This document shows, piece after piece, positions 1,953 to 30,829 of a DNA stretch of 32,000 nt (positions are counted from its first letter, which is position 1; every line of letters begins with the position of its first letter). The notes beneath the pieces are model-generated. The model was not told the origin of the DNA. It made no database searches and saw only the letters and a program-made list of their open reading frames with translations. The stretch comes from Candidatus Saccharimonadota bacterium (GTDB taxonomy: Bacteria; Patescibacteriota; Saccharimonadia; Saccharimonadales; Saccharimonadaceae): NCBI RefSeq assembly GCF_025273655.1, contig NZ_CP045921.1, positions 870,001 through 902,000 of the forward strand. The letters are read 5' to 3'. The translations under genes and the position numbers were made by a program.

Positions 1953-2013
1953 ACCTATCTCCTGTTATGTGATGTGTTCATCATACCATGCCAAACTTGT
2001 TAGTATAGATAGT

Positions 2014-2403
2014 ATGACCAACTACAATATTCTCTATATCCACTCACACGACACAGGTCGGCACATCGAACCGTACGGCTTTCCGGTCAGTACGCCAAAT
2101 CTCGCCAACCTCGCCCAGCAAGGCACACTGTTTCGCCATGCCTTTTGTGTCGCGTCATCGTGTTCGGCTGCTCGAGCATCTCTCATGACTAGCCTCTACC
2201 CACATCAAAACGGCATGACCGGTCTCGCACATCGCGGCTGGCATCTTACAGATTATTCTAAAACCCTCGTTGCGTTTCTCAACGATCAAGGTTACCACAC
2301 GGCACTCATGGGCGAAAGCCATATCACGCCCTATGACGAGACAGAGTTTCCACACCAAAATAGATCAAGAACGCTGCAACCTACTCGAGCTGTCGCACAG
2401 TAA
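2014..2403 (+). pseudogene. Sulfatase family remnant: only the N-terminal ~110 aa are retained, with a degenerate active-site motif
   Basis: MTNYNILYIHSHDTGRHIEPYG...TPNLANLAQQGTLFRHAFCVASSCSAARASLMTSLYPHQNGMTGLAHRG...GYHTALMGESHI matches a sulfatase N-terminus, but the ORF stops after 129 aa whereas sulfatases are typically more than 400 aa. The C/S-x-P-x-R signature reads C-S-A-A-R, so the Pro is lost. No continuation was recognised in other frames. Confidence 0.6.
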
Positions 2404-2521
2404 AGCAAGCATGGCCAGTGTGCTGACAAGGAAGCCGAATCTTTGCACATTTCATGTTGCACCGTGTAGTCCTATCAGCATGCTTGCTTGTAGGCTTATA
2501 CTAGATGTAGGAGGACATACT

Positions 2522-2824
2522 ATGAAAGCAATTTGGCATGACACCGTAATCGCAGAAGCGCCTGAGGGGGATTTGATTCGTATCGAGGGAAATTGGTATT
2601 TTCCACCGAGTAGCCTACATCGCCAATTTTTCCAGCCGAGCGACCATCATACCACCTGTTTTTGGAAAGGCGATGCAAGTTATTACGACGTCGTCGTAGA
2701 CGGCCAGGCAAATGACTTCGGCGCATGGTATTACGCACAGCCAAAAGCAGGCTCTATCGAGCGGGTGAAGCAAGATTTCACTGATTACGTCGCGTTCTGG
2801 AACGGCATTACGGTTGAGGCGTAG
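2522..2824 (+). CDS. DUF427 domain-containing protein
   Basis: Internal ATG of track ORF 2270..2824, preceded by the SD taGGAGGacatact. MKAIWHDTVIAEAPEGDLIRIEGNWYFPPSSL...TTCFWKGDASYYDVVVDGQANDFGAWYY fits the DUF427 pattern (C-x-W/Y-KG-x-A-x-YY). Confidence 0.8.
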   Translation: MKAIWHDTVIAEAPEGDLIRIEGNWYFPPSSLHRQFFQPSDHHTTCFWKGDASYYDVVVDGQANDFGAWYYAQPKAGSIERVKQDFTDYVAFWNGITVEA

Positions 2825-13361: not shown

Positions 13362-13363
13362 TC

Positions 13364-14590
13364 ATGCCAAAATTTAGCTACGAAGCCACCTCCACTACTG
13401 CACCGGGCACTATCGTCAAAGGTGAAATTGAGGCAGCTGATCGGGAGAGCGTTGTAAGTGCACTCGGCAAACAACACCTCAATCCCGTCAGTATCAAGGA
13501 AGCCAAAGCGGGCGGCTTCAATCTTAGTCTTGGTGGTGGCAAAGTCAAGTCAGACGAGCTCGTGATCTTTACACGACAACTCAGCGCCATGATCAGCGCT
13601 GGCGTACCGCTTCTGCGCTCACTCAATTCACTCGCTGAGCATGCTGAAAATCCAGCCTTCAAAAAGATCCTCAATACAGTCATTATCGATATCCAAAGCG
13701 GTACCGGTTTTGGTGAAGCACTCGAAAAATACCCGCGCGTCTTCAGCGATGTCTATGTCAACATGGTCAAAGCCGGCGAAACCGCTGGTATCCTGGACGA
13801 CATCCTCAAGCGCCTAGCGACGCAGCAAGAAAAAAACGCCACTATCCGCAAAAAGATCAAAAGTGCTATGTCCTATCCGATGGTACTGGTTGTCATCATG
13901 ATCGGCGCATTCTTCGGGCTGATGCTGTTCGTGATCCCGCAAATCGGCAAGATTATCACTGATTTGGGCGGTCCAGATGCCAAGCTTCCACTACTCACTC
14001 AAATCATGCTCGGAATTAGCGCCTTTTTGCTCGGCTATTGGTTCCTATGGATGCCTGCGCTTGTTGGTGCCGTCTTTGGTGTGACACGCTACTTACGTAC
14101 TCCTGGTGGTAAACGCAATTTTCACATTCTTATTCTCAAGCTTCCGCCTGTCAACACTATTATCAAAAAGGTTGCCGTTGCCCGCTTTGCACGAACCTAC
14201 TCATCACTCATCGGTGCTGGCGTTTCAGTCATCGAGGCCATCCATGTAACCGGACGCGCCATCGGTAACACCGTCTACATGGAAGCGCTAGAAGACGCAG
14301 CCAATCGTGTCAAAAATGGTGAACAGCTATCAAAGATCGTCGAAGAGCGTGAAGATCTCTTCCCCTCTATTCTTTCTCAGATGCTATCTGTGGGAGAAGA
14401 GACAGGACAGACCGATGTCGTGCTCATCAAAGTCGCCGATTTCTACGAAGAAGAGGTGGATGTAGCAATCGACGGCATCAGTTCCATCATCGAGCCAGTC
14501 ATGATCGTATCGATGGGCTCCATGGTCGGTCTGATTGCCGCAAGTGTGATGGGACCTATCGCAAGCATCTCGCAAAACATCAAAGGCTAG
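13364..14590 (+). CDS. pilC: Type IV pilus inner-membrane platform protein PilC (GspF family)
   Basis: 408 aa with a duplicated T2SSF domain (FTRQLSAMISAGVPLLRSL... and FARTYSSLIGAGVSVIEAI...) and 3 TM segments. SD AAGGAG. Confidence 0.95.
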   Translation: MPKFSYEATSTTAPGTIVKGEIEAADRESVVSALGKQHLNPVSIKEAKAGGFNLSLGGGKVKSDELVIFTRQLSAMISAGVPLLRSLNSLAEHAENPAFKKILNTVIIDIQSGTGFGEALEKYPRVFSDVYVNMVKAGETAGILDDILKRLATQQEKNATIRKKIKSAMSYPMVLVVIMIGAFFGLMLFVIPQIGKIITDLGGPDAKLPLLTQIMLGISAFLLGYWFLWMPALVGAVFGVTRYLRTPGGKRNFHILILKLPPVNTIIKKVAVARFARTYSSLIGAGVSVIEAIHVTGRAIGNTVYMEALEDAANRVKNGEQLSKIVEEREDLFPSILSQMLSVGEETGQTDVVLIKVADFYEEEVDVAIDGISSIIEPVMIVSMGSMVGLIAASVMGPIASISQNIKG

Positions 14591-14647
14591 CACTAGTATA
14601 AGCATGAGCTTCATGCTATAGTGAAGACAAACTAACGCGTGGGCGAC

Positions 14648-15700
14648 ATGGGAAAGCTGTTTTACAAAGACAAAACATTAATTGGGCTCGACATCAACAC
14701 CACCGAAATCAAAGTTATGTCGGTCGATGCAGAAAAATGGCTCGTACGTGGATACGGAGCTATTGATGTCGATGCCGCACGCATGAAAAAGGTCTTCGAC
14801 AAAGGCGATCCGTATCTCGAGACACAGATCAAGACATTACTGTCTGAAAAGGTCATCGGTGATATAAATACTGATCAGATTGTAGTCAGCCTCCCCACCT
14901 CACGCACCTACGCGCGTGCGTTTACTGTACCAATTTCCGCAGAGAAAAATCTCAAAGAGGCAGTCGAACTTGAAGTCGGGCAATATGTGCCTATCCCCGT
15001 TTCACTGCTCTACGTCGATTATGAAGTAGTCGATCGTACCAAAGACACTCTCACCGTTATCATGTCGGCTGTGCCACAGGCACTTGTCAACAATGTCATG
15101 ACCTCAATCGACGCAGCCGGTCTAACTACAAACGCAATCGAACCAAGCATTAACTCGATTGCACGCCTCCTGCGTACCACCGAAGAAGGCGATCTGCCAA
15201 CGCTTATCGTCGATATCGGCCCCGCCAATACCGACATTGCAGTACTCGACGGATCGATTCGTGTCACGGGAGGTACGACGGTTGGGGGTAATACTTTCAC
15301 ACTTGATATCGCCAAAAAACTTGGCGTCGCACTCGAAAACGCACACCAGCTCAAAGTTCTTAACGGTCTCAACCCTGGCCCCAGACAAAAGAAAATTACT
15401 TCGGCCGTCGAACCAAGTCTGCAACGTATCACTTCTGAGATTCGCCGCGTTATGCGCTACTACAACGAACGTATCTCTAGCGAGAAAAAACTCGAGCAAC
15501 TCCTCATCGTAGGCGGCGGTAGCAACATGCCCGGTATCGGCGAATACTTCACCAACGATCTGCTCATGCCGTCTCGCGTCGCCAGTCCATGGCAAAAACT
15601 TGACTTTGGCGCACTAGCTCAACCTGCTAAGCAGTTTCGCTCGCGTTACATCACTGTCGCAGGGCTTGCTAGCTTGACGAACGAGGAGGTCTGGAAATGA
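14648..15700 (+). CDS. pilM: Type IV pilus assembly protein PilM (actin-like ATPase fold)
   Basis: LIGLDINTTEIKVMSVD...TLIVDIGPANTDIAVL...LLIVGGGSNMPGIGEYF gives the ASKHA phosphate and adenosine motifs typical of PilM. The track start 14639 is GTG; ATG 14648 is preferred. Confidence 0.9.
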   Translation: MGKLFYKDKTLIGLDINTTEIKVMSVDAEKWLVRGYGAIDVDAARMKKVFDKGDPYLETQIKTLLSEKVIGDINTDQIVVSLPTSRTYARAFTVPISAEKNLKEAVELEVGQYVPIPVSLLYVDYEVVDRTKDTLTVIMSAVPQALVNNVMTSIDAAGLTTNAIEPSINSIARLLRTTEEGDLPTLIVDIGPANTDIAVLDGSIRVTGGTTVGGNTFTLDIAKKLGVALENAHQLKVLNGLNPGPRQKKITSAVEPSLQRITSEIRRVMRYYNERISSEKKLEQLLIVGGGSNMPGIGEYFTNDLLMPSRVASPWQKLDFGALAQPAKQFRSRYITVAGLASLTNEEVWK

Positions 15701-16296
15701 TCAATCTCCTACCCCCAGAGTCTGCCAAGCAACTACGTGCAGCTCGCCACAACACACTGCTCCTCAAATACGTTGTCGGACTCGGCATTACACTTGGTCT
15801 CATCGTACTCGTATACGGTGCGACATTTGTCCTCATGAAATCTACAGAGCTCGCCAACAACGCGTCGTCGGCAGCAAGTAAGCAGAAAATTGCTAACTAT
15901 AACCAAGCGGCAGCAGAAGCGAAAGCATATACAGCAAATCTCAGTATGGCAAAATCTATTTTTGACACAGAAGTTTCATACACGACGGCGCTTCACAAAA
16001 TTGCTGCTGCACTCCCTAGCGGTACGGTTATCGAGGCACTTAATCTTTCTCCTACTACTATTGGCACACCGAGTACGCTTACGTTGCTTGCCAAAACAAA
16101 ACAAGATGCACTCAACGTTAAGCCCGCACTTGAAGCGCACAAAATAGCAAACGGCATCACTATCGCTAGCCTCAATGAAGGTAAAGACAGTGCACAAGCA
16201 GCTCCAACAGCCGCCTCTGATCAAACATATCCTGTCACCCTCAATCTCAATCTCACATTTGACAAAACTGTCTTTGTTGCAGAGGAGAAGTCATGA
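15697..16296 (+). CDS. pilN: PilN-like type IV pilus biogenesis protein
   Basis: MINLLPPE... N-terminus (the PilM-binding INLLP motif) followed by a single TM helix and a periplasmic-type domain. ATGA coupling to pilM. Confidence 0.7.
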   Translation: MINLLPPESAKQLRAARHNTLLLKYVVGLGITLGLIVLVYGATFVLMKSTELANNASSAASKQKIANYNQAAAEAKAYTANLSMAKSIFDTEVSYTTALHKIAAALPSGTVIEALNLSPTTIGTPSTLTLLAKTKQDALNVKPALEAHKIANGITIASLNEGKDSAQAAPTAASDQTYPVTLNLNLTFDKTVFVAEEKS

Positions 16297-16934
16297 ACAA
16301 AAATCCCCTAGGTCAACTTACCGCCAGCAAGCTTCGGCTTATTTTGCTCGGCTCCGCCGTGATACTTGTACTGGCTTCAGCTGGGCTAATCATCCTCGGA
16401 CAACAAGCAGTATCTAGCTACGGTAAAGAAGTATCATCTACCGTTGCCGTGTCATCATCTGACGAAAAAACGCTTCAAGATCTCGAAATCGTTAGTCGAG
16501 CACTCGCGTCACAAAAACCAATAGTAGACAAATCCAAGCTTATTATCGCAGACAAAAACAATACCTATACATACCAAAAGCAAGTCATCCAAGATATTAC
16601 GCGTTATGCGGATATGGCAGGCGTACAAGTTGTCGGCTTCACTTTTGCAGAGACAGGCGGAGTAACAACTGGTGCTCCAGCCACAGCAGCCGCATCTACT
16701 CCCGCAGCAGGCACGAAAGCCGGGGGCATCGCAACTCCAGCTGGAGTCACACCAGTCAACGTGACTGTCGCGCTCGGTGGCGACGTTTCCTATGACACGC
16801 TTTACAAGCTTCTCCAGCTCCTCGAGGGTAATCTACTGCGCATGGAAATCGAAAGCCTAGACCTAAGCCGCCCGAGTGGCACTGAAGCATCAGCCGTCTC
16901 ATCATTAACCATACGGATATACACACAAAAATGA
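16293..16934 (+). CDS. PilO-like type IV pilus biogenesis protein (positional and topological call)
   Basis: 213 aa with an N-terminal TM helix, an Ala/Thr/Pro/Gly-rich linker, and a C-terminal VNVTVALGGDVSYDTLYKLLQLLEGNLLRMEIESLDLSR...LTIRIYT resembling the PilO core. ATGA overlaps on both sides. Confidence 0.5.
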   Translation: MNKNPLGQLTASKLRLILLGSAVILVLASAGLIILGQQAVSSYGKEVSSTVAVSSSDEKTLQDLEIVSRALASQKPIVDKSKLIIADKNNTYTYQKQVIQDITRYADMAGVQVVGFTFAETGGVTTGAPATAAASTPAAGTKAGGIATPAGVTPVNVTVALGGDVSYDTLYKLLQLLEGNLLRMEIESLDLSRPSGTEASAVSSLTIRIYTQK

Positions 16935-19552: not shown

Positions 19553-19630
19553 TCAGCTACTACTACGGAATAGCTCCCTAAGATAACTTCAAGTCAGTAT
19601 AACGGTGTTGTATCCAAGCACACGAGACTT

Positions 19631-19639
19631 TGCTATACT
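19631..19639 (+). promoter_or_regulatory. Candidate extended -10 promoter (TGCTATACT) for the second pilin, ending 8 nt before its ATG
   Basis: TGcTATACT at 19631-19639, then ggatgtat, then ATG 19648. No SD. Confidence 0.45.
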
Positions 19640-19647
19640 GGATGTAT

Positions 19648-20082
19648 ATGAGAAAATCTGCGGGCTTCACTATCATCGAGCTACTCGTCGTAGTGGTGCT
19701 ATTTCTATCGATGTGCGGGCTTTTCCTATATCAGAAGAACACCATCGAAGCTGTCGCGCGGGACGATCGCCGAAAAGCCGATATTAATACGATGTACCAC
19801 AATCTCGAGAAGGTCTATTACCCCGCCCACCAATCCTACCCTGACACGCTCAACACCACAACCTTGCCATCGGTACAAGCCGACACATTCAAAGATCCAG
19901 CTGGTCTTGCCGTCAACGAGCTGCGTATTGACAATTCAGTCCTCGGCACTACAACCCGCTCTACTTACACATACGAACCAACTAACTGCAAAAACAATCA
20001 GTGTAGCGGCTACACGCTTCGTGCCGATCTCGAAAAAGAAGCAGATTATGTGCGTACATCTGTCCACGGCAACAAAAAGTAA
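19648..20082 (+). CDS. Prepilin-type N-terminal cleavage/methylation domain protein (second type IV pilin or minor pilin)
   Basis: MRKSAG|FTIIELLVVVVLF shows a class III signal peptide. C-terminal C-x4-C (CKNNQC). The track start 19630 is TTG; ATG 19648 gives a canonical 6-aa leader. Confidence 0.85.
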   Translation: MRKSAGFTIIELLVVVVLFLSMCGLFLYQKNTIEAVARDDRRKADINTMYHNLEKVYYPAHQSYPDTLNTTTLPSVQADTFKDPAGLAVNELRIDNSVLGTTTRSTYTYEPTNCKNNQCSGYTLRADLEKEADYVRTSVHGNKK

Positions 20083-22393: not shown

Positions 22394-22971
22394 TAGCCTT
22401 TCAACGCCCGCGTCACGCGCTCAGCTGTCGATAGTTCAGTTGATACACCTTCGAGTGCTTTCGTCGCGTCATTTAGATTGTACCCGAGCGCCATCAGCGC
22501 CTCGAGTGCTTCATCGGTATGCGAGAGCACGGCGGATTCACCAGTCGCCATATTATTGTCGTAGCGTAGCGCCAGACCGACTTTGTCGTGCAAATCTACC
22601 ACTACGCGCTCAGCGGTCTTTTTGCCGACGCCACTCGCTTTCGTCACGAACGCCACATCTTCACTTGCGATGGCATTTCGCACCACTTCGCTATCCGCCA
22701 GACTTAGGATTGCCAGTGCAGCTTTTGGCCCGACGCCTTGCACTGTGATAAGGAGCTCGAACAGCTTCTTGGCTGCCAGACTCGAGAAGCCAAACAGATC
22801 CTGCGATTGCTCACGGATATGATGGTAGGTATAAAACTTCACTTCTTCGTGCAGCAGCGCTCGCTCGTAATCACCCAGCGCTGTCTGTACTTCATAACCT
22901 ACACCATGCACATCCACGATGATAGCATTGCCAAACTTTTCTGCAACCGTACCGTGTACATGTGCAATCAT
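22393..22971 (-). CDS. ruvA: Holliday junction DNA-binding protein RuvA
   Basis: MIAHVHGTVAEKFGNAIIVDVHGVGYEV (OB domain I), HhH motifs LITVQGVGPKAALAIL and KASGVGKKTAERVVVDL, and C-terminal domain III. Confidence 0.93.
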   Translation of the reverse strand: MIAHVHGTVAEKFGNAIIVDVHGVGYEVQTALGDYERALLHEEVKFYTYHHIREQSQDLFGFSSLAAKKLFELLITVQGVGPKAALAILSLADSEVVRNAIASEDVAFVTKASGVGKKTAERVVVDLHDKVGLALRYDNNMATGESAVLSHTDEALEALMALGYNLNDATKALEGVSTELSTAERVTRALKG

Positions 22972-25412
22972 CGTGCACCTCCTGTAGTACTTTGACCATT
23001 TGTGCCTGCATTACCATTATTACCAGAAGATGAAGAGTTCGTCGTGATGAGATATGTAGCAGACGAGCTAGTAGCTGATTTAAACTTCGTCGGATCGCTC
23101 GAGGTAAATGTCGCGCTCAGTTGGTGTGTGCCGACAGGCAGAGAAGACGAGGTAATCGATGCTTTTCCACCAGACACCGTCGCTGAGCCAAGTGACGCGC
23201 CATCGATCATAAATGTCACAGTACCAGTTGCGTCTGCAGCGGATACACTCGCCGTAAATGTCACGCTCGTACCCACGGGCGCACTTCCGTTTGGGCTACC
23301 AGCCACAGACAGCGACGTCTCGACAGGCTTACTGGTATCTTGCTCTTCTTCTTTTGGCTTCTCTTCTTGGCGCTGTTGAGTCTGTACGTTACAGCCTACT
23401 TCCGGCAGCGCACTCGACAGATAGTATTCCTTGTACGTATTACCGCCAGATGTACTCGCAAGCTTACCGGTACCATAGCAGGTATCTTTTTGTACTACGC
23501 CGCTCGGTGCCTTGAACGGATCACCCGACTCAGTGACGATATCGTTCATGCTGTTACGCCAGATAGGACCCGCCAGCGAGCCGCCGCCACTCGACATCTC
23601 GGTATTGTCGTTGTTGCCGACCCATACACCCACAGTGATAGACGGCGTATAGCCAATCGTCCATGCATCACGATTCTCGTCTGTCGTACCGGTTTTCACG
23701 GCCGCCTTCTTGTTGCCACTTAGGCTCAGTGAACTACCAAACATACCCGAGCGCGCTTGATTATCAGAAAGTACGTTAGAGATTAGGAACGCGCCTTCTT
23801 CGCTAATAACGCGCTTGGACTGTTCTTTGTTTTTATAAATGATCTGATCGTATTTGGTCTTAATCTCTTCTTCGTAGGCTACCTGTTTTTGGTCGCCTCC
23901 GTTGGCAAAGCCAGCATAGGCATGCGTCATGTCGAGCAGTTTCGCTTCGCCAGCGCCAAGCGCAAGTGACAGACCGTAGTTGTTTTTCTTCTGAATCGTG
24001 TCGATACCCATGCGATTTGCCGCCTCAATCGATTTGTCGACGCCATATTGCTGCATCACCTTCACGGCCGGGATATTCAGCGACCAGTTGAGTGCTTTGC
24101 GCACCGTCACGTTGCCATTATAGTTGCGCAGGGCGTTTTTTGGCTGGTAGCCATCGATATTGATAGGTTCGTCTTTGAGTATCGTGGCCGGATTTATCAC
24201 ACCGTCCGCCATCGCTGCCGCATAGTAGATAGGCTTAAAACTACTACCAGGCTGGCGCGCTGATGTCACCATATTTACCTTGCCGTCTTGCTCGTCGTTC
24301 CAATCATAGCTACCGATCAGTGCACGAATCGCACCGGTTTTCGGATCTATAGCGACAGCTGCCGCATTGGAGCCGCCACTACGACGGATAGCTGTCATGT
24401 TTTTGTTGATATTGTCTTGCAGTTCGGCCTGCATATTGAGGTCTAGCGTTGTCTTGACCTGGTAGCCAGAGCGAGCGACTTTTTCCTCGCCGTAGCGTTT
24501 GTTGAGATCAGCCAATACCATTTCAGCAAAATGAGGAGCAGGGCTATTGTCGGTCGAAGACTCCGGCGCAGCAAACGCTAGCTGCTGAGCAAGTGCCTGA
24601 TCCTTCTCGGCTTGCGTGATGAAACCGTTTTTCAGCATGCGGTTCAGCACAGTCTCTTGGCGCTCTTTGGCGTACTTCATCTCTCCATAGATCGGCGAAT
24701 ACGCGTTTGGCGCCGGCAGCACACCGATAATCATGGCGCTCTCTGCCAGCGTCAGATCCTTAGGGGACTTGTTGAAAAATGTCCGTGCCGCATCGCCGAT
24801 ACCGAACGCATTACCGCCGAAAAACGCTGAGTTAAGATACATCTCGAGTATCTCATCTTTGCTATACGTCTGCTCAATCGCTATCGATACCGATAGCTCT
24901 TGGAACTTACGCAAATAGCTCTTCTGATCCGTCAGCAGTGTGTTCTTTGCCAGCTGCTGTGTGAGTGTGCTGCCTCCATAATTTTTGCCTCCTGTCACCA
25001 CGTTGCCATAGACCGCACCCAGCATGCTCACAAACGAGAAGCCGCCGTGATTGTAAAAATCTTTGTCTTCACTAGCGAGTAGCGCTTTCTTGGTCGTATC
25101 ATTCATCTCACTGAGTGGTACCAGGTCACGGTGTTTGGCACGGCCGCTTTCATAGATAGTCGTGCCGTGTACGTCCGTTAGGACGATACCAGTGTTATTA
25201 CGGTTCATCAAGCGCTCTTTGTCAGAGATGTCACGGGCAAAATAAAGATATGTCAGCAGTGGGATCAAGATCAGTACGATCAATATTGGCGTCACAATAA
25301 CAGAGATTTTCTGCCAGCGCTTCAAATTGCGAAACCACAGTATATAGGTGTTGACAGTCAACCATGCAGCGCGTGTCTTGCGCTGTTTTGTGTATTTTCC
25401 TACTCTTCGCAT
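22968..25412 (-). CDS. Class A penicillin-binding protein (PBP1A-type glycosyltransferase/transpeptidase) with a C-terminal Ig-like domain
   Basis: N-terminal TM helix. GT51 motifs (ASEDKDFYNHGGF, GGSTLTQQLAKN, RKFQE). Transpeptidase motifs SSFKP, SLN and KTGTT. C-terminal tail ...VGTSVTFTASVSAADATGTVTFMIDGASLGSATVSGGKASITSSSLPVGTHQLSATF, then a Ser/Asn/Gly-rich end. Confidence 0.95.
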   Translation of the reverse strand: MRRVGKYTKQRKTRAAWLTVNTYILWFRNLKRWQKISVIVTPILIVLILIPLLTYLYFARDISDKERLMNRNNTGIVLTDVHGTTIYESGRAKHRDLVPLSEMNDTTKKALLASEDKDFYNHGGFSFVSMLGAVYGNVVTGGKNYGGSTLTQQLAKNTLLTDQKSYLRKFQELSVSIAIEQTYSKDEILEMYLNSAFFGGNAFGIGDAARTFFNKSPKDLTLAESAMIIGVLPAPNAYSPIYGEMKYAKERQETVLNRMLKNGFITQAEKDQALAQQLAFAAPESSTDNSPAPHFAEMVLADLNKRYGEEKVARSGYQVKTTLDLNMQAELQDNINKNMTAIRRSGGSNAAAVAIDPKTGAIRALIGSYDWNDEQDGKVNMVTSARQPGSSFKPIYYAAAMADGVINPATILKDEPINIDGYQPKNALRNYNGNVTVRKALNWSLNIPAVKVMQQYGVDKSIEAANRMGIDTIQKKNNYGLSLALGAGEAKLLDMTHAYAGFANGGDQKQVAYEEEIKTKYDQIIYKNKEQSKRVISEEGAFLISNVLSDNQARSGMFGSSLSLSGNKKAAVKTGTTDENRDAWTIGYTPSITVGVWVGNNDNTEMSSGGGSLAGPIWRNSMNDIVTESGDPFKAPSGVVQKDTCYGTGKLASTSGGNTYKEYYLSSALPEVGCNVQTQQRQEEKPKEEEQDTSKPVETSLSVAGSPNGSAPVGTSVTFTASVSAADATGTVTFMIDGASLGSATVSGGKASITSSSLPVGTHQLSATFTSSDPTKFKSATSSSATYLITTNSSSSGNNGNAGTNGQSTTGGAR

Positions 25413-25431: not shown

Positions 25432-26187
25432 TTAGCTTAAAGAGTCGTATGCAGCGGCGAGCGCTATGAAGAAATTCGCTGGCGATTTGTAGCGATGGCT
25501 TGGCTCCCGTGAGAGGGCAGCGGTGAATACCCTACGTACAGGCTTAGGTAAATCCTGATTTACGGAAGCAGCGTGGAATTTGCGCCACATATGCGTGTCG
25601 TGTTTGCGCGGTTTTCGTACAAATGGCAACTCACCGCACAGCACCAAATGCGCCACTATAGCCGTACGATAGGTTGCCGTACGCAAATCAAGCACGACTG
25701 GTCGCCGAAACTCCTCGAGTGCCATCGTCTCCCAGGTTCCGCGATTGCTCGCGGCGCCATCAAGCATCCACCCTGCGTCGCTGCGTACCAGCGAGGCTTC
25801 TAGATCAATCATCCGCGCACCCGCATCAGTAAAAAATACATGCTCCAGATTGAGATCCCGATACATCACACCGTGAGCCAGTAGCTTCGTTTCAAGTACC
25901 ATGTATAGCTCGAGTCGCAACTTTGCTTGAGCCCACGCAATCTTCGTTGCGTGCCATTCGTCGGTAAGCTGTATCCACGACTTGAGATCCGTACCGTCAA
26001 ACCGCTCTATGACAAGACTAGCCAAGCCATCACCCTCTTGATGACTCAATATGTTCGCCACACAACCAGTGTCCGCCAAACAGGAGAGTATCTGAAGTTC
26101 ACGCGTGATTCTCGTCACACCGTCTTGAGTTGATGCCGTCTTGACCACTCGCGTCGGCTCGACACGAGTGGCGACAGTGTTATTCAC
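25432..26187 (-). CDS. Minimal eukaryotic-like Ser/Thr protein kinase fold protein with degenerate catalytic motifs (possible pseudokinase)
   Basis: 251 aa, GTG start with SD GAGGGGG 7 nt upstream. Candidate subdomains: VVK (K16), RELQIL (E30), LVIERFDGTDL hinge, HGVMYRDLNLEHVFF (Y-R-D-L-N-L-E-H instead of H-R-D-L-K-P-x-N), IDLE instead of DFG, GTWETMALEE instead of APE, DLRTATYRTAIVAHLVLCGELPF, and HRY. No Gly-rich loop, TM segment or PASTA domains. Confidence 0.55.
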   Translation of the reverse strand: MNNTVATRVEPTRVVKTASTQDGVTRITRELQILSCLADTGCVANILSHQEGDGLASLVIERFDGTDLKSWIQLTDEWHATKIAWAQAKLRLELYMVLETKLLAHGVMYRDLNLEHVFFTDAGARMIDLEASLVRSDAGWMLDGAASNRGTWETMALEEFRRPVVLDLRTATYRTAIVAHLVLCGELPFVRKPRKHDTHMWRKFHAASVNQDLPKPVRRVFTAALSREPSHRYKSPANFFIALAAAYDSLS

Positions 26188-26203: not shown

Positions 26204-26683
26204 TCATAACGCTCTCGTCATCATCGAGTGAGTAATTGCTGCCGCAAGTGCATCTGCGGCATCGTCGGGCCTAGGAATATCTTTCAGACCAAGATGGATA
26301 CGTACCATTTCCTGCATCTGTTTTTTGTCTGCCTTGCCGTAGCCAGTCAACGTCTGCTTGATCTGCTGTGGTGTATATTCGGCAATCGGCAATTTCGCGC
26401 GCCTGCCGGTGAGCATAGCCACGCCGCGCGCTTGTGCGACACTGATAGCCGTGGTAACGTTCTGTGAGAAAAAGAGTTTTTCGATCGACATAATCTCCGG
26501 TTTTGTCTCAGCAATAATATCCGTCAGGCCGTCGAAGATCTCTTCAAGCCGTTCATCGAGCGGTGTGTGTGCGGGTGTCGTGATGACACCGCCCGTCACC
26601 ATACGGACTTTGTTATCTTTCGTCACATCGATCACACCGAAGCCGAGGATACCCGTGCCCGGGTCAATACCAATAATTCTCAT
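26204..26683 (-). CDS. ruvC: Crossover junction endodeoxyribonuclease RuvC
   Basis: MRIIGIDPGTGILGFGVID (catalytic Asp), MSIEKLFF (Glu), and the C-terminal DAADALAAAITH acidic/His motif. 159 aa. Confidence 0.93.
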   Translation of the reverse strand: MRIIGIDPGTGILGFGVIDVTKDNKVRMVTGGVITTPAHTPLDERLEEIFDGLTDIIAETKPEIMSIEKLFFSQNVTTAISVAQARGVAMLTGRRAKLPIAEYTPQQIKQTLTGYGKADKKQMQEMVRIHLGLKDIPRPDDAADALAAAITHSMMTRAL

Positions 26684-26699
26684 ATCCCCAGTATACCCA

Positions 26700-28562
26700 C
26701 TATTTCACAAACGGCAGCATACCGAGTAGACCGGATAGTCCGCTCCATATCTCGCGCCGCCACTCCCAGCCTGCATAGCCAAACGATACCACGCCCACAC
26801 CAGCGAGGGCGAGCCATGACAGTACTTGGTCGGAGGTTGCAGGAGTCTCAACAACCGAGAAACCAGCATCTCCGTCGCCTTGCGTCACTTTGCGGCAACG
26901 ATTCGTATCGAGATTGCGCTCCTGGCCCACAGCGCAGGGCTTCAGGTCTGTGGAGGCAGTCGCGAGCGAGCGACAACGATTGGTTTCCGGGCTGCGGTAT
27001 TGCCCCTCTTTGCAGGGTGTCAGGCTCGACGCTGTAGCACTGGTTAGCTTACGGCAACGACCGGTGTCGGGACTACGATATTCGTCGATGTCGCATGGTG
27101 TCAGTGTACTCGGCACTGCAATTTTGTTACATCTGCCGGTATCGAGATTTCGCTCATAGCCGGCTTGACATGGCACATATGGCTCATACACATTGACCGC
27201 GCCGGGTGTCGTTACAAATGTCTGCTGCCAGACACCATCAACCAATGCATAGCTGGTATTCTCGCTCAGATTCTCGTAACTGCGCGCATCCACCTCCGTC
27301 TGCCCGTCGCTTGAAAGTACGTACACGGTGCCAGTCGTAGTCTTCGTCAGGCTGAGTTTGGTATCGGCTACATTCACCGACACAAATGCACCCGGTGCTA
27401 CTATCTGCTCACCAAATACATGGCTGATTTCGGTAGAGCGATTGGTCTGCAATTGACAGCCGCGCAGATTCACGGATTCGCTAGACGCATTGTATAATTC
27501 GATGAACTGCACGCTCAGATTCGCGCCAATCTCACTCAGACGCAAACTACTACAACTGTTAACCGGCTGCCCGTCGGTAAATTGATTTGGCATATCATAC
27601 GGCGAGGGATACTGCGTCCAGCGCCATAGCCCGTTCGTATCCTGTGACCACGCTTGGCCTTTTTTGGCCGACGCATCACCGTACGCGACCATAGAATCTT
27701 GGTACTGCACCACTCCGTAGGCATCTTCGAGCCATACCCAATTACCACTATTGGTGAGTGAGAGGGGAAATACACCGTACGCACTCGGCGCGAGCGTGCC
27801 ACCCAATAACACAGTGTTACTACTTGTAGCATTTTGCTCTACCGAACCAGTTCTCAGGCGCAGACCCGCTAGATCTAGCGTGCTAGCACTGGTGTTATAG
27901 ACCTTCACGTAATCGTTACAGGTCAACATAGTGTCGAACGGCTGACACGCAGCAGGATTTGGTAGTACTTCAACAATGCGCAGCGGTGTCGCAGACAGTG
28001 GTATATAGAGCGGTGTTTGCCAGAGTTCTGTGCGAGTCTCGACAGCATAAGCAGTCGTGTAGCCGCTCGCGCCCTGGTTGAGTCGCATCGGAACCTGGGT
28101 GGTGGTAGCCGTAAACGTTCGCTCATACGAACGATACTGTGCATGATCAAGATGCATCTTGCTTAGGAAATTGTCAGTGTTTATCGTCGGACTCGACACC
28201 TGCACATGCGCACCTGGCACCGTCGCACCAAATCCTACCAGCACATAGCCACCTGGCGCGATATAGTGGGAATCATCCGCAGATAGCCCTACTACTAGGC
28301 GCGGTGTCGCGAGAGCTGTCGTCGTTTTGGCGCTCCAGTCGAACACGAGCGACCACTCCCTCAGCTTCAGGGGTATATCGCCGTCATTGTAGATTTCGAC
28401 ATACTGAGGTAGGCCGACCTGCGTCACGGAATACGCGGTAATCGCAAGAGGCGACTGTGGCAGTAAGGGGCTCGGCGAGACAGTCGATATCGCGGACGTG
28501 GGGCTCACGACCAGAAATGCAGCACAGGCAATCAGCGTAGTAAGATATCGGAAAAAGCGCAT
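26700..28562 (-). CDS. Membrane-anchored surface protein with three lamin-tail-domain (LTD)-like modules and four C-x12-C repeats
   Basis: Signal peptide MRFFRYLTTLIACAAFLVVSPTSA. LTD-like cores: QYVEIYNDGDIPLKLREWSL, LRIVEVLPNP...DYVKVYNTSASTLDLAGLRL and LRLSEIGAN...QFIELYNASSESVNLRGCQL. These are followed by four Cys repeats, a C-terminal TM helix (VLSWLALAGVGVVSFGYAGW) and a short tail. Confidence 0.75.
   Translation of the reverse strand: MRFFRYLTTLIACAAFLVVSPTSAISTVSPSPLLPQSPLAITAYSVTQVGLPQYVEIYNDGDIPLKLREWSLVFDWSAKTTTALATPRLVVGLSADDSHYIAPGGYVLVGFGATVPGAHVQVSSPTINTDNFLSKMHLDHAQYRSYERTFTATTTQVPMRLNQGASGYTTAYAVETRTELWQTPLYIPLSATPLRIVEVLPNPAACQPFDTMLTCNDYVKVYNTSASTLDLAGLRLRTGSVEQNATSSNTVLLGGTLAPSAYGVFPLSLTNSGNWVWLEDAYGVVQYQDSMVAYGDASAKKGQAWSQDTNGLWRWTQYPSPYDMPNQFTDGQPVNSCSSLRLSEIGANLSVQFIELYNASSESVNLRGCQLQTNRSTEISHVFGEQIVAPGAFVSVNVADTKLSLTKTTTGTVYVLSSDGQTEVDARSYENLSENTSYALVDGVWQQTFVTTPGAVNVYEPYVPCQAGYERNLDTGRCNKIAVPSTLTPCDIDEYRSPDTGRCRKLTSATASSLTPCKEGQYRSPETNRCRSLATASTDLKPCAVGQERNLDTNRCRKVTQGDGDAGFSVVETPATSDQVLSWLALAGVGVVSFGYAGWEWRREIWSGLSGLLGMLPFVK
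26892..27173 (-). repeat. Four tandem coding repeats (~26 aa each) of a C-x12-C motif
   Basis: PCQAGYERNLDTGRCNK / PCDIDEYRSPDTGRCRK / PCKEGQYRSPETNRCRS / PCAVGQERNLDTNRCRK, at aa 464-557 of the LTD protein. Confidence 0.8.
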
Positions 28563-28570
28563 ATGCTTAA

Positions 28571-28599
28571 AATATACGCTACAAATTCTGAGTTGTAAA
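28571..28599 (-). promoter_or_regulatory. Near-consensus promoter TTTACA-17-TATATT ending 8 nt before the LTD gene ATG
   Basis: Minus strand reads TTTACAactcagaatttgtagcgTATATTttaagcatATG. It starts 5 nt after the yebC stop. No SD. Confidence 0.5.
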
Positions 28600-28603
28600 T
28601 GAA

Positions 28604-29317
28604 TTATTCGACAATATTTGCGTTGGTATGTACGTTCACCACATCTGCTACGTCATCGAGTGCATCCATCACCTTCATGACTTTTGCAGCAGTTTCTTCG
28701 TCGGTGATGTCGATCTCGCTATTTGGTACATACTGCAGCTCGGCATCCGTCACGCTTAGCCCCGCGTCAATAATTGCTTGGCGTACTTTTGCCAAATCTT
28801 TCTGGTCGGTATATACCACCAACTCACCATCGGCTTCGAGCGCGTCTTCAGCACCCGCATCAAGCACCGTCAGCAGTGCGTCTTCGCCGCTTGCCGCGAC
28901 ACGAATCACTCCTTTGCGTGTAAACTGAAACATCACACTACCAGCGTCAGCAATACGTCCGCCATTTTTCACCAGTGCGTTTTTCACTTCTGGCAGGGTG
29001 CGGTTACGATTGTCAGTCGCTGTTTCGATGATAAGACCTACGCCGCCAGGTCCGTAACCTTCGTACGTAATCTCTTCAAGTGCAGCCGCGTTTTTGTCAT
29101 TCACTCGGTCGATCGCACGCTGGATGTTGGCGTTTGGCATGTTGGCAGCCTTGGCTTTTTCGACTGCCAGGGCAAGTGCCGAGTTCATATTCACATCAGT
29201 TCCAGCACGTGCTGCAATCGCAATCTGGTTGCCGAGCTTGGTAAAAATCGCCCCACGCTTAGCATCGTTGGCACCTTTTTGGCGTTTGATAGTTTCCCAT
29301 TTACTGTGTCCTGACAT
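28604..29317 (-). CDS. yebC: YebC/PmpR family DNA-binding transcriptional regulator
   Basis: MSGHSKWETIKRQKGANDAKRGAIFTKLGNQIAIAARAG is the hallmark YebC N-terminus. 237 aa. Confidence 0.93.
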   Translation of the reverse strand: MSGHSKWETIKRQKGANDAKRGAIFTKLGNQIAIAARAGTDVNMNSALALAVEKAKAANMPNANIQRAIDRVNDKNAAALEEITYEGYGPGGVGLIIETATDNRNRTLPEVKNALVKNGGRIADAGSVMFQFTRKGVIRVAASGEDALLTVLDAGAEDALEADGELVVYTDQKDLAKVRQAIIDAGLSVTDAELQYVPNSEIDITDEETAAKVMKVMDALDDVADVVNVHTNANIVE

Positions 29318-29368: not shown

Positions 29369-30829
29369 TTACTCGACCAGGTTCACCTGTCGGAAGCTGA
29401 GCCGGGTACGGCGCTTGAGCCAGACGATCAGTAGGATGATGAATCCGTAGAGCACTAATGCCGTCGGCACATCTACCGACACTTCGCTACTCGCCCAGGG
29501 CAACTCGGCGAGTAGCCCGATAATCCACGTCATATAGCTCAGCAGCCAGTACGCCGGCAACGCCATAAGTCCTGCCAGCCATGGTAGCCACATCGCGGCG
29601 AGACCTGCCACAAATGTCAGTAGCATGGCGAGTGGCACCAGTGGTAAGACAAGCAAATTTGCCACCAGCGCGACGTTGGATATCACACCAAACGTCACCA
29701 ATATCAGCGGCAGCGTGAGCACCTGGGCAGAAAAAGTCTCGCCGAGCACCTGCCGCACCAGACCAGGCTTCTTGTCGCCGTAGAAATACACCTGCAGCAA
29801 CGGCGCTAGGAACATCACGCCCGCAAATGACGCGAAGCTAAGCATCCAGCCCACGTCACCCCACAGATAGCTCGGCTGCACTAGTACAGATATAGCCGCC
29901 GTCACCACCAGTAGTACCGCCGGATGAATCGTGCGGCCATAATACCAAGCTATCAAGCTCAGTCCGGCCACCAGCCCTGCGCGCGACATACTCGGACTCA
30001 AACCCGTAATACCGACAAATGCCACAATGAGTGTGCCGCTCGCCAGCACCGCCATATAGCGCGACACTCGTTCAAAGAGGCGCCGACTCACACGTACCAA
30101 TATTGTAAGATTGTAGCCGCTTGCGACCACCACGTGCGTCAGACCGACAGTCAGCAGCGCCGCTTCAAAATCAGCAGGCAGCGCTCGCTTCTGCCCCAAT
30201 ATATAGCCGATCCCGAGCGACGCTTGCGGATCGGGCAACGCAGTGCGAATCATGTCAGCAAAGTAGTTGCGTACTTCGAGCATCGGGTCAAACCGTACGT
30301 GTTTTTGCAGTTCCACCAGCCCAACGCGAAACATCGTGGCCGCAAACGTACCGAAGCCTTCGTCGAGCGTACCGCGTACCGTCACCCGGTCACTGCGCTC
30401 AATAGCCTTCGCTCCGCTGCCACTCACGCTCACCCAGTACACGCCGCCGTAGCGTACACCATTGATCTGCACACTATCGAGCCGCAAGCGCACCTCACTG
30501 CCGCTACCGCTTGCTGGATCTTCACGCACAGTTCCGCTCATCGTGACCGTGCGGCCGGTATAGTGCGACAAATCTACCCACGACGCCAGCTCATATGCGC
30601 CGCGACCATAGCCTATTGTCGCGCCAACCATGCATAACACAATCAGTGTCCAGCGCCGCGCCTTCCAGAAGCACAGAGCGAGCCAAAACAGCCAGACCAC
30701 CCACCACGATGCAGCCGTGAACCACTGGCTCGGGAAGTAATATGACAATAGCACCCCGGCCAGCACACCGCACGACAGGCCAGATATCAGAAAGACAGAG
30801 TGGATACGACGAGAGAGCCAGGAAAACAT
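29369..30829 (-). CDS. comEC: ComEC/Rec2 family competence channel protein: DUF4131/OB plus Competence domain, without the metallo-beta-lactamase domain
   Basis: 486 aa. N-terminal TM helices and an OB-like insert (GRTVTMSGTVREDP...VTVRGTLDEGFG), followed by a polytopic competence domain (GLTHVVVASGYNLTILV...). The protein ends right after the last TM helix. Confidence 0.88.
   Translation of the reverse strand: MFSWLSRRIHSVFLISGLSCGVLAGVLLSYYFPSQWFTAASWWVVWLFWLALCFWKARRWTLIVLCMVGATIGYGRGAYELASWVDLSHYTGRTVTMSGTVREDPASGSGSEVRLRLDSVQINGVRYGGVYWVSVSGSGAKAIERSDRVTVRGTLDEGFGTFAATMFRVGLVELQKHVRFDPMLEVRNYFADMIRTALPDPQASLGIGYILGQKRALPADFEAALLTVGLTHVVVASGYNLTILVRVSRRLFERVSRYMAVLASGTLIVAFVGITGLSPSMSRAGLVAGLSLIAWYYGRTIHPAVLLVVTAAISVLVQPSYLWGDVGWMLSFASFAGVMFLAPLLQVYFYGDKKPGLVRQVLGETFSAQVLTLPLILVTFGVISNVALVANLLVLPLVPLAMLLTFVAGLAAMWLPWLAGLMALPAYWLLSYMTWIIGLLAELPWASSEVSVDVPTALVLYGFIILLIVWLKRRTRLSFRQVNLVE

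What the first reader, a model, noticed from the sequence alone, without database searches (positions are those of the whole stretch)
26700..28562. Triple-LTD, Cys-repeat, membrane-anchored surface protein next to comEC: candidate extracellular DNA receptor
Seen in sequence:
- The 620-aa ORF has a signal peptide and three modules with the lamin-tail-domain-like core (x-YVE/FIELYN-x-s-x-x-v-x-L-x-g-w-x-L).
- The second and third modules are closed by a W...(S/T)P(Y/G)..(P/V)N segment; the first is less clear.
- Four ~26-aa repeats follow, of the form P-C-x5-(Y/E)-R-(N/S)-(L/P)-(D/E)-T-(G/N)-R-C-(N/R)-(K/S). The Cys pairs are C465/C478, C490/C503, C517/C530 and C543/C556.
- The protein ends with one TM helix and a short tail. 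I recognise no catalytic domain.

Established knowledge: bacterial LTDs are mostly appended to secreted nucleases (ExeM/NucH type) and to some ComEC proteins, which is a DNA-facing context.

Inference: the gene sits between yebC and ruvC, 0.8 kb from a ComEC that lacks its nuclease domain. No ComEA-type HhH DNA receptor is present in the window. The gene has its own near-consensus promoter (TTTACA-17-TATATT). It may therefore be the surface DNA-capture component of a CPR-type uptake pathway, with the Cys-hairpin repeats acting as a rigid stalk.
Basis: partly seen in the sequence, partly recalled or inferred. Interest (0 to 1): 0.7.

Follow-up and report, generated by a model that had tools for sequence, protein, structure and literature searches.

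The report
Saccharibacteria membrane-anchored lamin-tail surface protein
This is a real surface protein found in essentially all Saccharibacteria, built from three lamin-tail-type immunoglobulin-like domains on a disulfide-stapled stalk with a membrane anchor; it usually sits near the DNA-uptake channel gene comEC, but current evidence does not show that it captures DNA, and some evidence points to a different, growth-related envelope role.

Summary
ORF 26700..28562(-) encodes a 620-aa type-I membrane protein of Ca. Mycosynbacter amalyticus (GII36_04935). It has a signal peptide, three LTD beta-sandwiches, four C-x12-C hairpin repeats, one TM helix and a conserved WEWRRE juxtamembrane motif.

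It belongs to a uniform family found in at least 569 Saccharibacteria species genomes and is the only LTD protein annotated in S. epibionticum. ComEC lies upstream in 43 of 57 evaluable loci and RuvC downstream in 61 of 70, but each linkage breaks in one clade.

The gene has its own positionally conserved, mostly leaderless promoter, which probably also drives ruvC and PBP1A.

The DNA-receptor idea is neither proven nor refuted.
- For: ComEC proximity; no ComEA in transformable S. epibionticum; LTDs occur on extracellular nucleases.
- Against: all three LTDs are acidic; LTD was not among domains fused to 4,935 Competence-domain proteins; the S. epibionticum orthologue is a class II essential gene while comEC is dispensable. 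That last result may be a polar artefact.

My best reading (0.4) is an envelope-spanning surface receptor or scaffold for epibiotic growth. DNA capture remains a live rival (about 0.2).

The parts
26700..28562 (-). Whole gene: 620-aa type-I membrane protein (GII36_04935 of Ca. Mycosynbacter amalyticus)
   Evidence: ORF list. 100% identical database entry P0001. Pfam LTD at 79.4 bits.
28571..28599 (-). Sigma-70-type promoter-like element TTTACA-17-TATATT in the 41-bp YebC-LTD gap; the -10 box ends 8 nt before the ATG, implying a leaderless or near-leaderless transcript
   Evidence: An equivalent promoter sits at the same position in L001, L003, L005, L008, L009, L011, L013, L023, L024 and L052.
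28485..28562 (-). Signal peptide (aa 1-26; hydrophobic core aa 7-25). The LIAC resemblance to a lipobox is not conserved in homologues.
   Evidence: Hydropathy, AF2 helix 2-19, alignment.
28113..28457 (-). LTD module 1 (aa 36-150), the distal and most variable domain (mean 27% identity; absent or replaced in divergent members)
   Evidence: Pfam LTD 20.4 bits, E 7e-4, sub-threshold. Confident AF2 beta-sandwich. Conservation.
27588..27992 (-). LTD module 2 (aa 191-325), containing the C206/C215 pair and ending in W..SPY..PN
   Evidence: Pfam LTD 28.9 bits, E 1.5e-6. AF2. Mean 39% identity.
27198..27563 (-). LTD module 3 (aa 334-455), the membrane-proximal conserved core with near-invariant C337/C369 and the LTLTKTTTGTVY motif
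   Evidence: Pfam LTD 39.5 bits, above the gathering score. Mean 58% identity. Near-invariant columns.
26889..27173 (-). Four ~26-aa Cys-hairpin repeats (P-C-x5-[YE]-R-[NS]-x-[DE]-T-[GN]-R-C-[NR]-[KS]) separated by S/T/A-rich linkers. This is the basic stalk (net +5, pI 8.9). A regex count gives 2-7 copies per protein across 80 species loci.
   Evidence: AF2 beta-hairpins. Weak Pfam TNFR_nem hit at 22 bits, below the gathering score of 27. DPAM 'TNF receptor-like' assignment for the orthologue.
26769..26825 (-). Single transmembrane helix (aa 580-598)
   Evidence: Hydropathy. AF2 helix 577-615.
26745..26768 (-). Conserved cytoplasmic juxtamembrane motif WEWRREIW (family pattern [WFY][EQ][WYF][RK]x[ED]; E604 invariant), followed by a variable basic tail running to the stop codon at 26700
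   Evidence: Alignment. 80 loci. 70% mean identity versus 18% for the distal tail.
29369..30829 (-). Context: ComEC (DUF4131 + Competence, no metallo-beta-lactamase domain)
28604..29317 (-). Context: YebC/TACO1-family protein
26204..26683 (-). Context: RuvC, 16 bp downstream of the LTD stop codon and probably co-transcribed with it
22968..25412 (-). Context: class A PBP (transglycosylase + transpeptidase + Big_3_5) in the same tightly packed gene string

Best explanation
The gene encodes a Saccharibacteria-specific, envelope-spanning, type-I membrane-anchored surface receptor or scaffold. It is the only LTD protein annotated in S. epibionticum.

Shown:
- A Sec-type signal peptide.
- Three lamin-tail (Ig-like) beta-sandwiches.
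- A stalk of 2-7 Arg-rich, disulfide-stapled hairpins joined by S/T-rich linkers.
- One TM helix.
- A conserved aromatic/charged juxtamembrane motif.

Inferred: the conserved membrane-proximal module (LTD3 + stalk + TM) fixes the protein in the membrane and carries it through the cell wall. The fast-evolving distal LTD1 and LTD2 domains face outwards and bind an extracellular ligand that differs between lineages, most plausibly a host or own envelope polymer. The protein contributes to growth on the host independently of ComEC-mediated transformation. Its place next to comEC would then be inherited gene order in a highly syntenic, operon-dense phylum, not a functional coupling.
For: Architecture.

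Family uniformity and distribution: at least 569 species genomes, nearly all labelled Saccharibacteria. 754 clusters at 50% identity match at E <= 1e-30, with the module at the C-terminus in nearly all of the best 150. The stalk/anchor module was never found with another ectodomain.

Conservation gradient: LTD1 27%, LTD2 39%, LTD3 58%, Cys repeats 61-69%, juxtamembrane motif 70%. In divergent members the N-terminal region is replaced. This is the pattern expected for a variable outward-facing ligand domain on a fixed anchor.

Charge: the LTDs are acidic (family median net charge -3, -5, -7) and the ectodomain pI is about 4.7-4.9.

Transcription: the gene has its own conserved promoter, including in the clade where comEC is the immediate upstream gene.

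Genetics: SEML1_0775 is a Patescibacteria-enriched core family and a class II essential gene (normalised reads 451, 104, 13). comEC (12,586, 11,147, 12,301), yebC, dprA and the ComF-like gene SEML1_0021 are non-essential, and the comEC deletion strain is viable.

Precedent: the same study found that other essential envelope proteins with binding-type domains are candidate host adhesins. Mans et al. 2004, as cited, list tandem-LTD secreted proteins and LTDs combined with oligosaccharide-binding domains as known bacterial contexts.
Against: No ligand is identified, and no adhesin-specific or glycan-binding domain reaches significance (CBM_2 E 0.06 only).

The Tn-seq phenotype may be polar. Transposon T36 carries the tuf terminator. 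The LTD gene lies 5 bp upstream of ruvC in S. epibionticum, and ruvC, the PBP gene and ruvA themselves score as growth-defect then essential.

The most conserved part of the ectodomain is LTD3, which could equally be a conserved binding site for an invariant ligand such as DNA.

ComEC adjacency is retained in a clade that lost YebC and RuvC from the locus.
Confidence: 0.4

Rival explanations
1. The protein is the ComEA-equivalent, membrane-anchored extracellular DNA receptor of the Saccharibacteria competence pathway. It would capture dsDNA, delivered by type IV pili, at the cell surface and hand it to the nuclease-less ComEC channel. The Arg-rich Cys stalk and/or the conserved LTD3 would be the DNA-contacting part.
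For: ComEC lies upstream on the same strand in 43 of 57 evaluable species loci and in all 7 metagenomic loci looked up. Adjacency persists in a clade where YebC and RuvC are gone.

S. epibionticum is transformable through ComEC yet has no ComEA signature. [quoted passage not shown]

LTDs occur on extracellular nucleases (ExeM) and on haloarchaeal eDNA proteins. Deleting the ExeM LTD slows DNA degradation in vitro.

The stalk is basic with invariant Arg residues. Type IV pilus genes and recA, recX and ruvABC share the window.
Against: The LTDs are acidic family-wide.

The gene has its own promoter and is co-transcribed with ruvC and PBP1A, not with comEC.

One whole clade keeps the gene without ComEC nearby.

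The Tn-seq phenotype differs from comEC, dprA and the ComF-like gene, subject to the polarity caveat.

The ExeM LTD is dispensable for eDNA degradation in vivo, and the role of the LTD is unresolved.

LTD is not a fusion partner of Competence-domain proteins. ComEC without Lactamase_B is common in competent bacteria and needs no special explanation.

The distal domains vary although DNA is an invariant ligand.
Confidence: 0.2
2. The protein captures nucleic acid for nutrition, independently of ComEC. It would hold host-derived DNA or RNA at the surface for secreted nucleases or nucleotidases, feeding nucleotide salvage in organisms that cannot make nucleotides. This would explain both the LTD-nuclease association and a fitness requirement.
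For: LTD is associated with eDNA-degrading enzymes. CPR bacteria lack de novo nucleotide synthesis. ComEC is not needed for growth, so nucleotide acquisition must use another route. The orthologue shows an essential-like phenotype.
Against: The acidity argument applies here as well. No nuclease is consistently linked to the gene; an SNase + Excalibur gene was seen upstream only in L007. The polarity caveat also applies. There is no direct evidence.
Confidence: 0.1
3. The protein is an envelope-biogenesis accessory. It would partner the co-transcribed class A PBP, or the division and wall machinery. The conserved TM and juxtamembrane motif would contact the PBP, and the stalk and LTD3 would sit in the wall.
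For: The gene string LTD-ruvC-(kinase-like)-PBP1A-ruvA is tightly packed, with gaps of 19 bp or less. PBP1A lies downstream in most loci. The PBP orthologue is essential. The membrane-proximal module is the most conserved part of the protein.
Against: PBP1A is missing from the neighbourhood in the 'no ComEC' clade and in several other loci that have RuvC followed directly by RuvA. No domain known from PBP regulators was found. The operon mixes unrelated functions (ruvABC).
Confidence: 0.12

Closest known systems
ExeM / Xds / NucH-type extracellular nucleases (LTD + OB-fold + EEP domain, C-terminal hydrophobic anchor)
   Same: Signal peptide, N-terminal LTD, cell-envelope association through a C-terminal hydrophobic segment, and an extracytoplasmic location.
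   Different: No OB-fold or EEP nuclease domain, and no catalytic domain of any kind. Three LTDs instead of one. A Cys-hairpin stalk. No recognised C-terminal sorting-signal model matched.
ComEA (HHH_3 +/- SLBB), the membrane-anchored dsDNA receptor of Gram-positive competence
   Same: Extracytoplasmic, membrane-anchored and encoded near comEC. The ComEA niche appears empty in S. epibionticum.
   Different: No HhH or SLBB domain. Anchored at the C-terminus rather than the N-terminus (the N-terminal ComEA anchor is from my own knowledge). Acidic ectodomain. The orthologue's Tn-seq phenotype differs from that of the other com genes.
Haloarchaeal LTD proteins (ComA-like LTD + metallo-beta-lactamase; Hvo_1477 LTD + thermonuclease)
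   Same: An LTD on a membrane-associated protein that has been linked to extracellular DNA (PMC5118699).
   Different: Those are lipobox-anchored enzymes with a hydrolase domain. This protein has none.
Nuclear lamin tail Ig-fold (PDB 2LLL, 3GEF, 1IFR)
   Same: Same fold: Foldseek probability 1.00, TM about 0.6. Pfam PF00932.
   Different: 12-21% identity. The context is extracellular and bacterial, and the domains are in tandem.
TNF-receptor-like / small disulfide-rich hairpin repeats
   Same: C-x12-C hairpins in tandem. ECOD 'TNF receptor-like' was assigned by DPAM to the orthologue (probability 0.941). Weak PF25314 hit.
   Different: Only one disulfide per unit. The Pfam score is below the family cut-off (22 versus 27 bits). 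The repeats are separated by S/T linkers and serve as a membrane-proximal stalk.
Tandem Ig-domain surface adhesins of Gram-positive bacteria
   Same: An array of Ig-like domains displayed on a wall-spanning stalk, with the most variable domain distal.
   Different: Anchored by a TM helix rather than by a sortase LPXTG signal. The domains are of LTD type. No ligand is known.

Membership tests
Lamin tail domain (Pfam PF00932) proteins | Significant match to the LTD profile above the gathering score | tested here: met
   Whole protein scores 79.4 bits against a gathering score of 34.3, with 3 stretches. Module 3 alone scores 39.5 bits; modules 2 and 1 score 28.9 and 20.4 bits.
Lamin tail domain (Pfam PF00932) proteins | Ig-like beta-sandwich fold superimposable on solved lamin tails | tested here: met
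   AF2 mean pLDDT is 83, with domain blocks at 86-97. Foldseek matches 2LLL, 3GEF and 1IFR at probability 1.00 and TMt 0.57-0.61.
ComEA DNA receptor | Helix-hairpin-helix DNA-binding domain (HHH_3, PF12836), with or without SLBB | tested here: not met
   No such hit even at E <= 10 on sub-segments.
ComEA DNA receptor | Binds dsDNA and is required for transformation | not testable with these tools
   Indirect evidence only. The orthologue's Tn-seq profile differs from comEC, dprA and the ComF-like gene, and the ectodomain is acidic.
ExeM/Xds/NucH LTD-nucleases | EEP (Exo_endo_phos) nuclease domain plus OB-fold region | tested here: not met
   No Pfam or NCBIfam hit other than LTD. No nuclease fold in the model.
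TNFR-like cysteine-rich repeats (PF25314 / ECOD TNF receptor-like) | Profile match above threshold; disulfide-stapled hairpin modules | tested here: inconclusive
   PF25314 scores 22.0 bits, E 1.7e-4, below the gathering score of 27. AF2 hairpins have pLDDT of about 52-87 by 10-residue block. DPAM assignment for SEML1_0775 has probability 0.941.
Bacterial lipoproteins | Conserved lipobox [LVI][ASTVI][GAS]C at the end of the signal peptide | tested here: not met
   L10-I-A-C13 resembles a lipobox but lies very early in the sequence. The Cys position and context are not conserved in homologues.
Sortase or C-terminal sorting-signal substrates (LPXTG, GlyGly-CTERM, PEP-CTERM) | Recognisable sorting motif before the C-terminal TM helix, with a short basic tail | tested here: not met
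   No NCBIfam model matched at E <= 0.1. There is no LPXTG-like motif before the TM helix, and about 22 residues follow it.
comEC operon component | Conserved co-transcription and co-occurrence with comEC | tested here: inconclusive
   Adjacent in 43 of 57 loci, but separated from comEC by its own conserved promoter and unlinked in one clade. Genome-wide co-occurrence could not be tested.

The most novel reading that the evidence does not exclude
The family is the missing extracellular nucleic-acid receptor of Saccharibacteria, an LTD-based functional replacement for ComEA. It would bind DNA at the surface through the conserved LTD3 and Arg-rich stalk module. It would feed ComEC for transformation, or a ComEC-independent salvage route. 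This would give the first assigned molecular function for a bacterial lamin-tail domain.
Probability: 0.2. Interest if true: 0.8.

Novelty: new variant of a known kind. Interest (0 to 1): 0.5.

Why it matters
Saccharibacteria and other CPR bacteria are naturally transformable through ComEC, but most lack a recognisable ComEA, so what binds incoming DNA is an open question.

This family is phylum-wide and is the only LTD protein annotated in S. epibionticum. It is surface-exposed and usually encoded next to comEC. It is scored as essential in the only genome-wide fitness screen of a Patescibacterium, yet it was never discussed there.

Both outcomes would be informative. If it is the DNA receptor, it would give bacterial LTDs a function and complete the CPR uptake pathway. 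If it is an adhesin or envelope scaffold, it is a conserved, accessible handle on the epibiotic lifestyle. Both are directly testable in the existing S. epibionticum genetic system.

Tried and rejected
1. Lipoprotein anchor. The LIAC sequence at aa 10-13 is not conserved, so I rejected it.

2. Sortase, GlyGly-CTERM or PEP-CTERM sorting. There was no NCBIfam hit, so I rejected it.

3. Hidden catalytic or HhH domain. Pfam at E <= 10 on five sub-segments gave only LTD, a weak TNFR_nem hit and noise. A PDB profile search gave nothing at E <= 0.01. Foldseek against the PDB gave only lamin tails and generic FnIII or transglutaminase Ig arrays.

4. The stalk/anchor as a generic module shared with other ectodomains. 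A search with aa 456-620 returned only fragments of the same family.

5. Recent DNA-level duplication of the Cys repeats. Only one weak 23-nt pair was found.

6. Using synteny to discriminate between ComEC and RuvC linkage. The two linkages are symmetric, with 1-2 clade-level breaks each.

8. Literature searches for characterisation of this family, by locus tags and annotation names, and for M. amalyticus cryo-ET or pilus papers mentioning it. Nothing was found.

9. Biochemical evidence that a bacterial LTD binds DNA. Only the ExeM domain deletions turned up, and they are inconclusive.
Full report
**1. What is there**

ORF 26700..28562 on the minus strand encodes a 620-aa protein. It is 100% identical to GII36_04935 of Candidatus Mycosynbacter amalyticus, which is annotated only as hypothetical or LTD domain-containing.

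There is an N-terminal hydrophobic signal segment (aa 7-25) and three modules with the (Y/F)(V/I)E(I/L)YN...L.G(W/C).L core. Four C-x12-C units sit at 465/478, 490/503, 517/530 and 543/556, spaced 25-27 aa apart. One C-terminal TM helix (about aa 580-598) is followed by a 22-aa tail.

Pfam LTD (PF00932) matches at 79.4 bits, E 3.2e-22, in three stretches. Scanned separately, module 3 passes the gathering score (39.5 bits). Modules 2 and 1 fall below it at 28.9 and 20.4 bits.

An AlphaFold2 model built on a 37-sequence alignment has mean pLDDT 83. It shows three confident beta-sandwiches (strands spanning aa 39-149, 194-316 and 340-448), four short hairpins at the Cys units and one continuous helix over aa 577-615. 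Foldseek matches single domains to solved lamin tails (2LLL, 3GEF, 1IFR) at probability 1.00 and TM about 0.6. Otherwise it returns only generic tandem Ig/FnIII arrays.

No catalytic or HhH domain appears in Pfam, in NCBIfam or in a PDB profile search. The Cys units give only a sub-threshold TNFR_nem hit (22 bits against a gathering score of 27).

**2. Family and conservation**

The protein belongs to a uniform family. There are 196 hits at E < 1e-5, nearly all about 600-655 aa, and all listed hits carry PF00932. For the C-terminal module alone, 754 clusters at 50% identity match at E <= 1e-30. In nearly all of the best 150 the module lies at the C-terminus of a 450-700 aa protein.

A scan of one genome per species found at least 569 genomes with a relative. 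Nearly all are labelled Saccharibacteria or Saccharimonadia.

Conservation rises towards the membrane:
- LTD1: 27% mean identity
- LTD2: 39%
- LTD3: 58%
- Cys repeats: 61-69%
- Juxtamembrane motif WEWRRE: 70%
- Distal tail: 18%

In divergent members the N-terminal half is replaced by a different LTD-containing region. A regex count gives 2 to 7 Cys repeats per protein across 80 species loci.

The near-invariant residues are C337/C369 in LTD3, the C...R..T(N/G)RC pattern in each repeat, and E604. A search with the stalk and anchor alone found only fragments of the same family, so this is not a shared module.

**3. Genomic context**

In the window the minus-strand string runs as follows:
1. DUF192
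2. TM protein
3. ComEC (DUF4131 + Competence, no Lactamase_B)
4. YebC
5. LTD protein
6. RuvC
7. kinase-like protein
8. PBP1A
9. RuvA
10. unannotated ORF
11. RuvB

From the LTD gene onwards the intergenic gaps are 19 bp or less. RecA, RecX and a PilB/PilC/PilM block lie further along. No ComEA-type protein is in the window.

All seven metagenomic loci I looked up, down to 29% identity, keep ComEC-YebC-LTD.

Across 80 species-representative loci:
- ComEC lies upstream in 43 of 57 evaluable loci, 7 of them without YebC in between.
- RuvC lies downstream in 61 of 70 evaluable loci.
- Where both sides are evaluable (54 loci), 36 have both, 11 have RuvC only, 6 have ComEC only and 1 has neither.

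A neighbour-joining tree of the conserved module shows that each variant is essentially one clade. Each linkage was therefore broken only once or twice, and the evidence is symmetric between ComEC and RuvC.

**4. Transcription**

The TTTACA-17-TATATT element is real. It lies at 28599..28571(-) in the 41-bp YebC-LTD gap, and its -10 box ends 8 nt before the ATG.

On its own it is not statistically remarkable: the region holds 9 promoter-like sites against 10.6 +/- 3.5 in shuffles. However, an equivalent -35/-10 pair recurs at the same place in most orthologous loci inspected, with the -10 box ending 6-11 nt before the start codon. One locus, L026, instead has a longer leader with a GGAGG Shine-Dalgarno sequence.

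Promoter-like elements also lie in the ComEC-LTD gap in several loci of the clade where comEC is the immediate upstream gene.

I infer that the LTD gene starts its own transcription unit, mostly leaderless, and that in this window the unit runs on into ruvC and PBP1A. Proximity to comEC is therefore not co-transcription.

**5. Experimental data on the orthologue**

Wang et al. 2023 (PMC10633639) showed that S. epibionticum is naturally transformable. Deleting comEC abolishes transformation but leaves the cells viable.

[quoted passage not shown] It is flagged as a core and Patescibacteria-enriched family. Its calls are NE/ES/ES, which makes it class II essential. Insertions fall from 53 in the input to 30, 6 and 1, and normalised reads fall from 451 to 104 to 13.

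ComEC gives 12,586, 11,147 and 12,301 reads. YebC, DprA and the ComF-like gene SEML1_0021 are non-essential at every time point. The main text never discusses SEML1_0775.

Table S2 assigns two LTD Ig domains and a 'TNF receptor-like' region to it. It is the only LTD protein and the only TNFR-like protein in that proteome.

Taken at face value, the protein matters for growth on the host under conditions in which the whole com pathway is dispensable. There is an important caveat. The transposon is an hph cassette flanked by the tuf promoter and terminator. The LTD gene lies 5 bp upstream of ruvC. RuvC, the PBP gene and ruvA are themselves scored as growth-defect then essential. If the promoter I infer in front of the LTD gene drives these genes, polarity alone could produce the phenotype. 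I treat this evidence as roughly even.

**6. Is there a vacancy for a DNA receptor?**

Yes. The S. epibionticum tables contain no ComEA, PF12836, PF10531/SLBB or K02237. Meheust et al. 2019 found the ComEA annotation in 31% of CPR genomes against 67% of other bacteria and suggested an alternative DNA-binding mechanism.

**7. What speaks against LTD as a DNA binder**

- All three LTD modules are acidic across the family, with median net charge -3, -5 and -7 and pI 4.3-5.0. The ectodomain pI is about 4.7-4.9. Only the stalk is basic (median +5, pI 8.9). This is a soft argument, because cation-bridged or stalk-mediated binding is possible.
- In ExeM, the one LTD-nuclease dissected, LTD deletion slowed DNA degradation in vitro but left degradation in vivo almost at wild-type level. 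The authors state that the role of LTDs 'has not yet been elucidated'.
- Mans et al. 2004, as cited there, list LTDs with several hydrolase classes, with oligosaccharide-binding domains and as tandem repeats. The domain is not specific to DNA.
- In a survey of 4,935 Competence-domain proteins, LTD was not among the co-occurring domains. DUF4131 + Competence without Lactamase_B was the second commonest profile among known competent strains.

**8. Verdict**

The protein is a new, lineage-specific variant of the poorly understood class of bacterial tandem-LTD surface proteins.

My best explanation (confidence 0.4) is an envelope-spanning receptor or scaffold. A conserved LTD3-stalk-TM module anchors it, and variable distal LTDs bind an extracellular ligand, probably an envelope polymer, during epibiotic growth. 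Its comEC neighbourhood would then be inherited synteny.

The rivals are:
- the ComEA-substitute DNA receptor (0.2);
- ComEC-independent nucleic-acid capture for salvage (0.1);
- a PBP-linked envelope role (0.12).

Existing Tn-seq reads, a non-polar mutant and simple binding assays would decide between them.

Noticed in passing
window 1969-2824 (+): The ORF at 1969..2403 (144 aa) matches only the first ~113 of 301 positions of Pfam Sulfatase. It overlaps a second ORF at 2270..2824 in another frame. This may be a frameshifted or pseudogenised sulfatase / LTA-synthase-like gene.
   Followed up: no
window 28563-28603 and the orthologous loci L001-L052: A leaderless-type promoter, with the -10 box ending 6-11 nt before the ATG and no Shine-Dalgarno sequence, is conserved in front of the LTD gene across Saccharibacteria. 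L026 instead has a 25-nt leader with GGAGG. This suggests leaderless translation is common in this phylum.
   Followed up: partly
window 25432-26187 (-): A 251-aa kinase-like ORF lies between ruvC and PBP1A, with sub-threshold Pkinase (25.7 bits against a gathering score of 31.7) and Kdo/WaaP hits. In the 80 species loci it was detected only in L090. Many other Saccharibacteria instead carry a Peptidase_S51 gene between the LTD gene and ruvC.
   Followed up: no
window 22968-25412 (-): The class A PBP carries a C-terminal Big_3_5 Ig-like domain followed by an S/T/G/N-rich tail. L009 has the same extension; other orthologues lack the Ig domain.
   Followed up: no
window 4613-5125 (-), 19630-20082 (+), 11583-16934 (+): Two pilin-like ORFs with N-terminal methylation motifs lie outside the PilB-PilC-PilM block. 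The two ORFs after PilM (15697..16296 and 16293..16934) have no Pfam hit and may be divergent PilN/PilO-like components.
   Followed up: no
loci L028-L030, L034, L044, L054, L056, L078, L079, L084 (and L051, L053): One Saccharibacteria clade, including several termite and insect-gut MAGs, keeps LTD-RuvC but has no ComEC within about 8 kb upstream. In the same clade the juxtamembrane motif has drifted from WEWRRE to F/W-Q/E-Y/F-R/K. Whether these genomes have ComEC elsewhere could not be checked.
   Followed up: partly
PMC10633639 Table S1, SEML1_0772-0777: ruvC, ruvA and the PBP gene all score as growth-defect then essential in S. epibionticum. The transposon carries a terminator. Class II essential calls for genes at the head of tight operons in that dataset may therefore include polar artefacts.
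   Followed up: partly
locus L007, 1218-4028: In one divergent relative, a secreted SNase + Excalibur nuclease gene and an OLD-family (AAA_21 + TOPRIM) gene sit just upstream of the ComEC-YebC-LTD block. This was not seen in the other loci.
   Followed up: no
P0313 (1646 aa) and P0321 (845 aa): Two much longer proteins match the conserved module. P0313 has 9 matched stretches and may be a giant multi-LTD protein. Their organism and genomic context are unknown.
   Followed up: no
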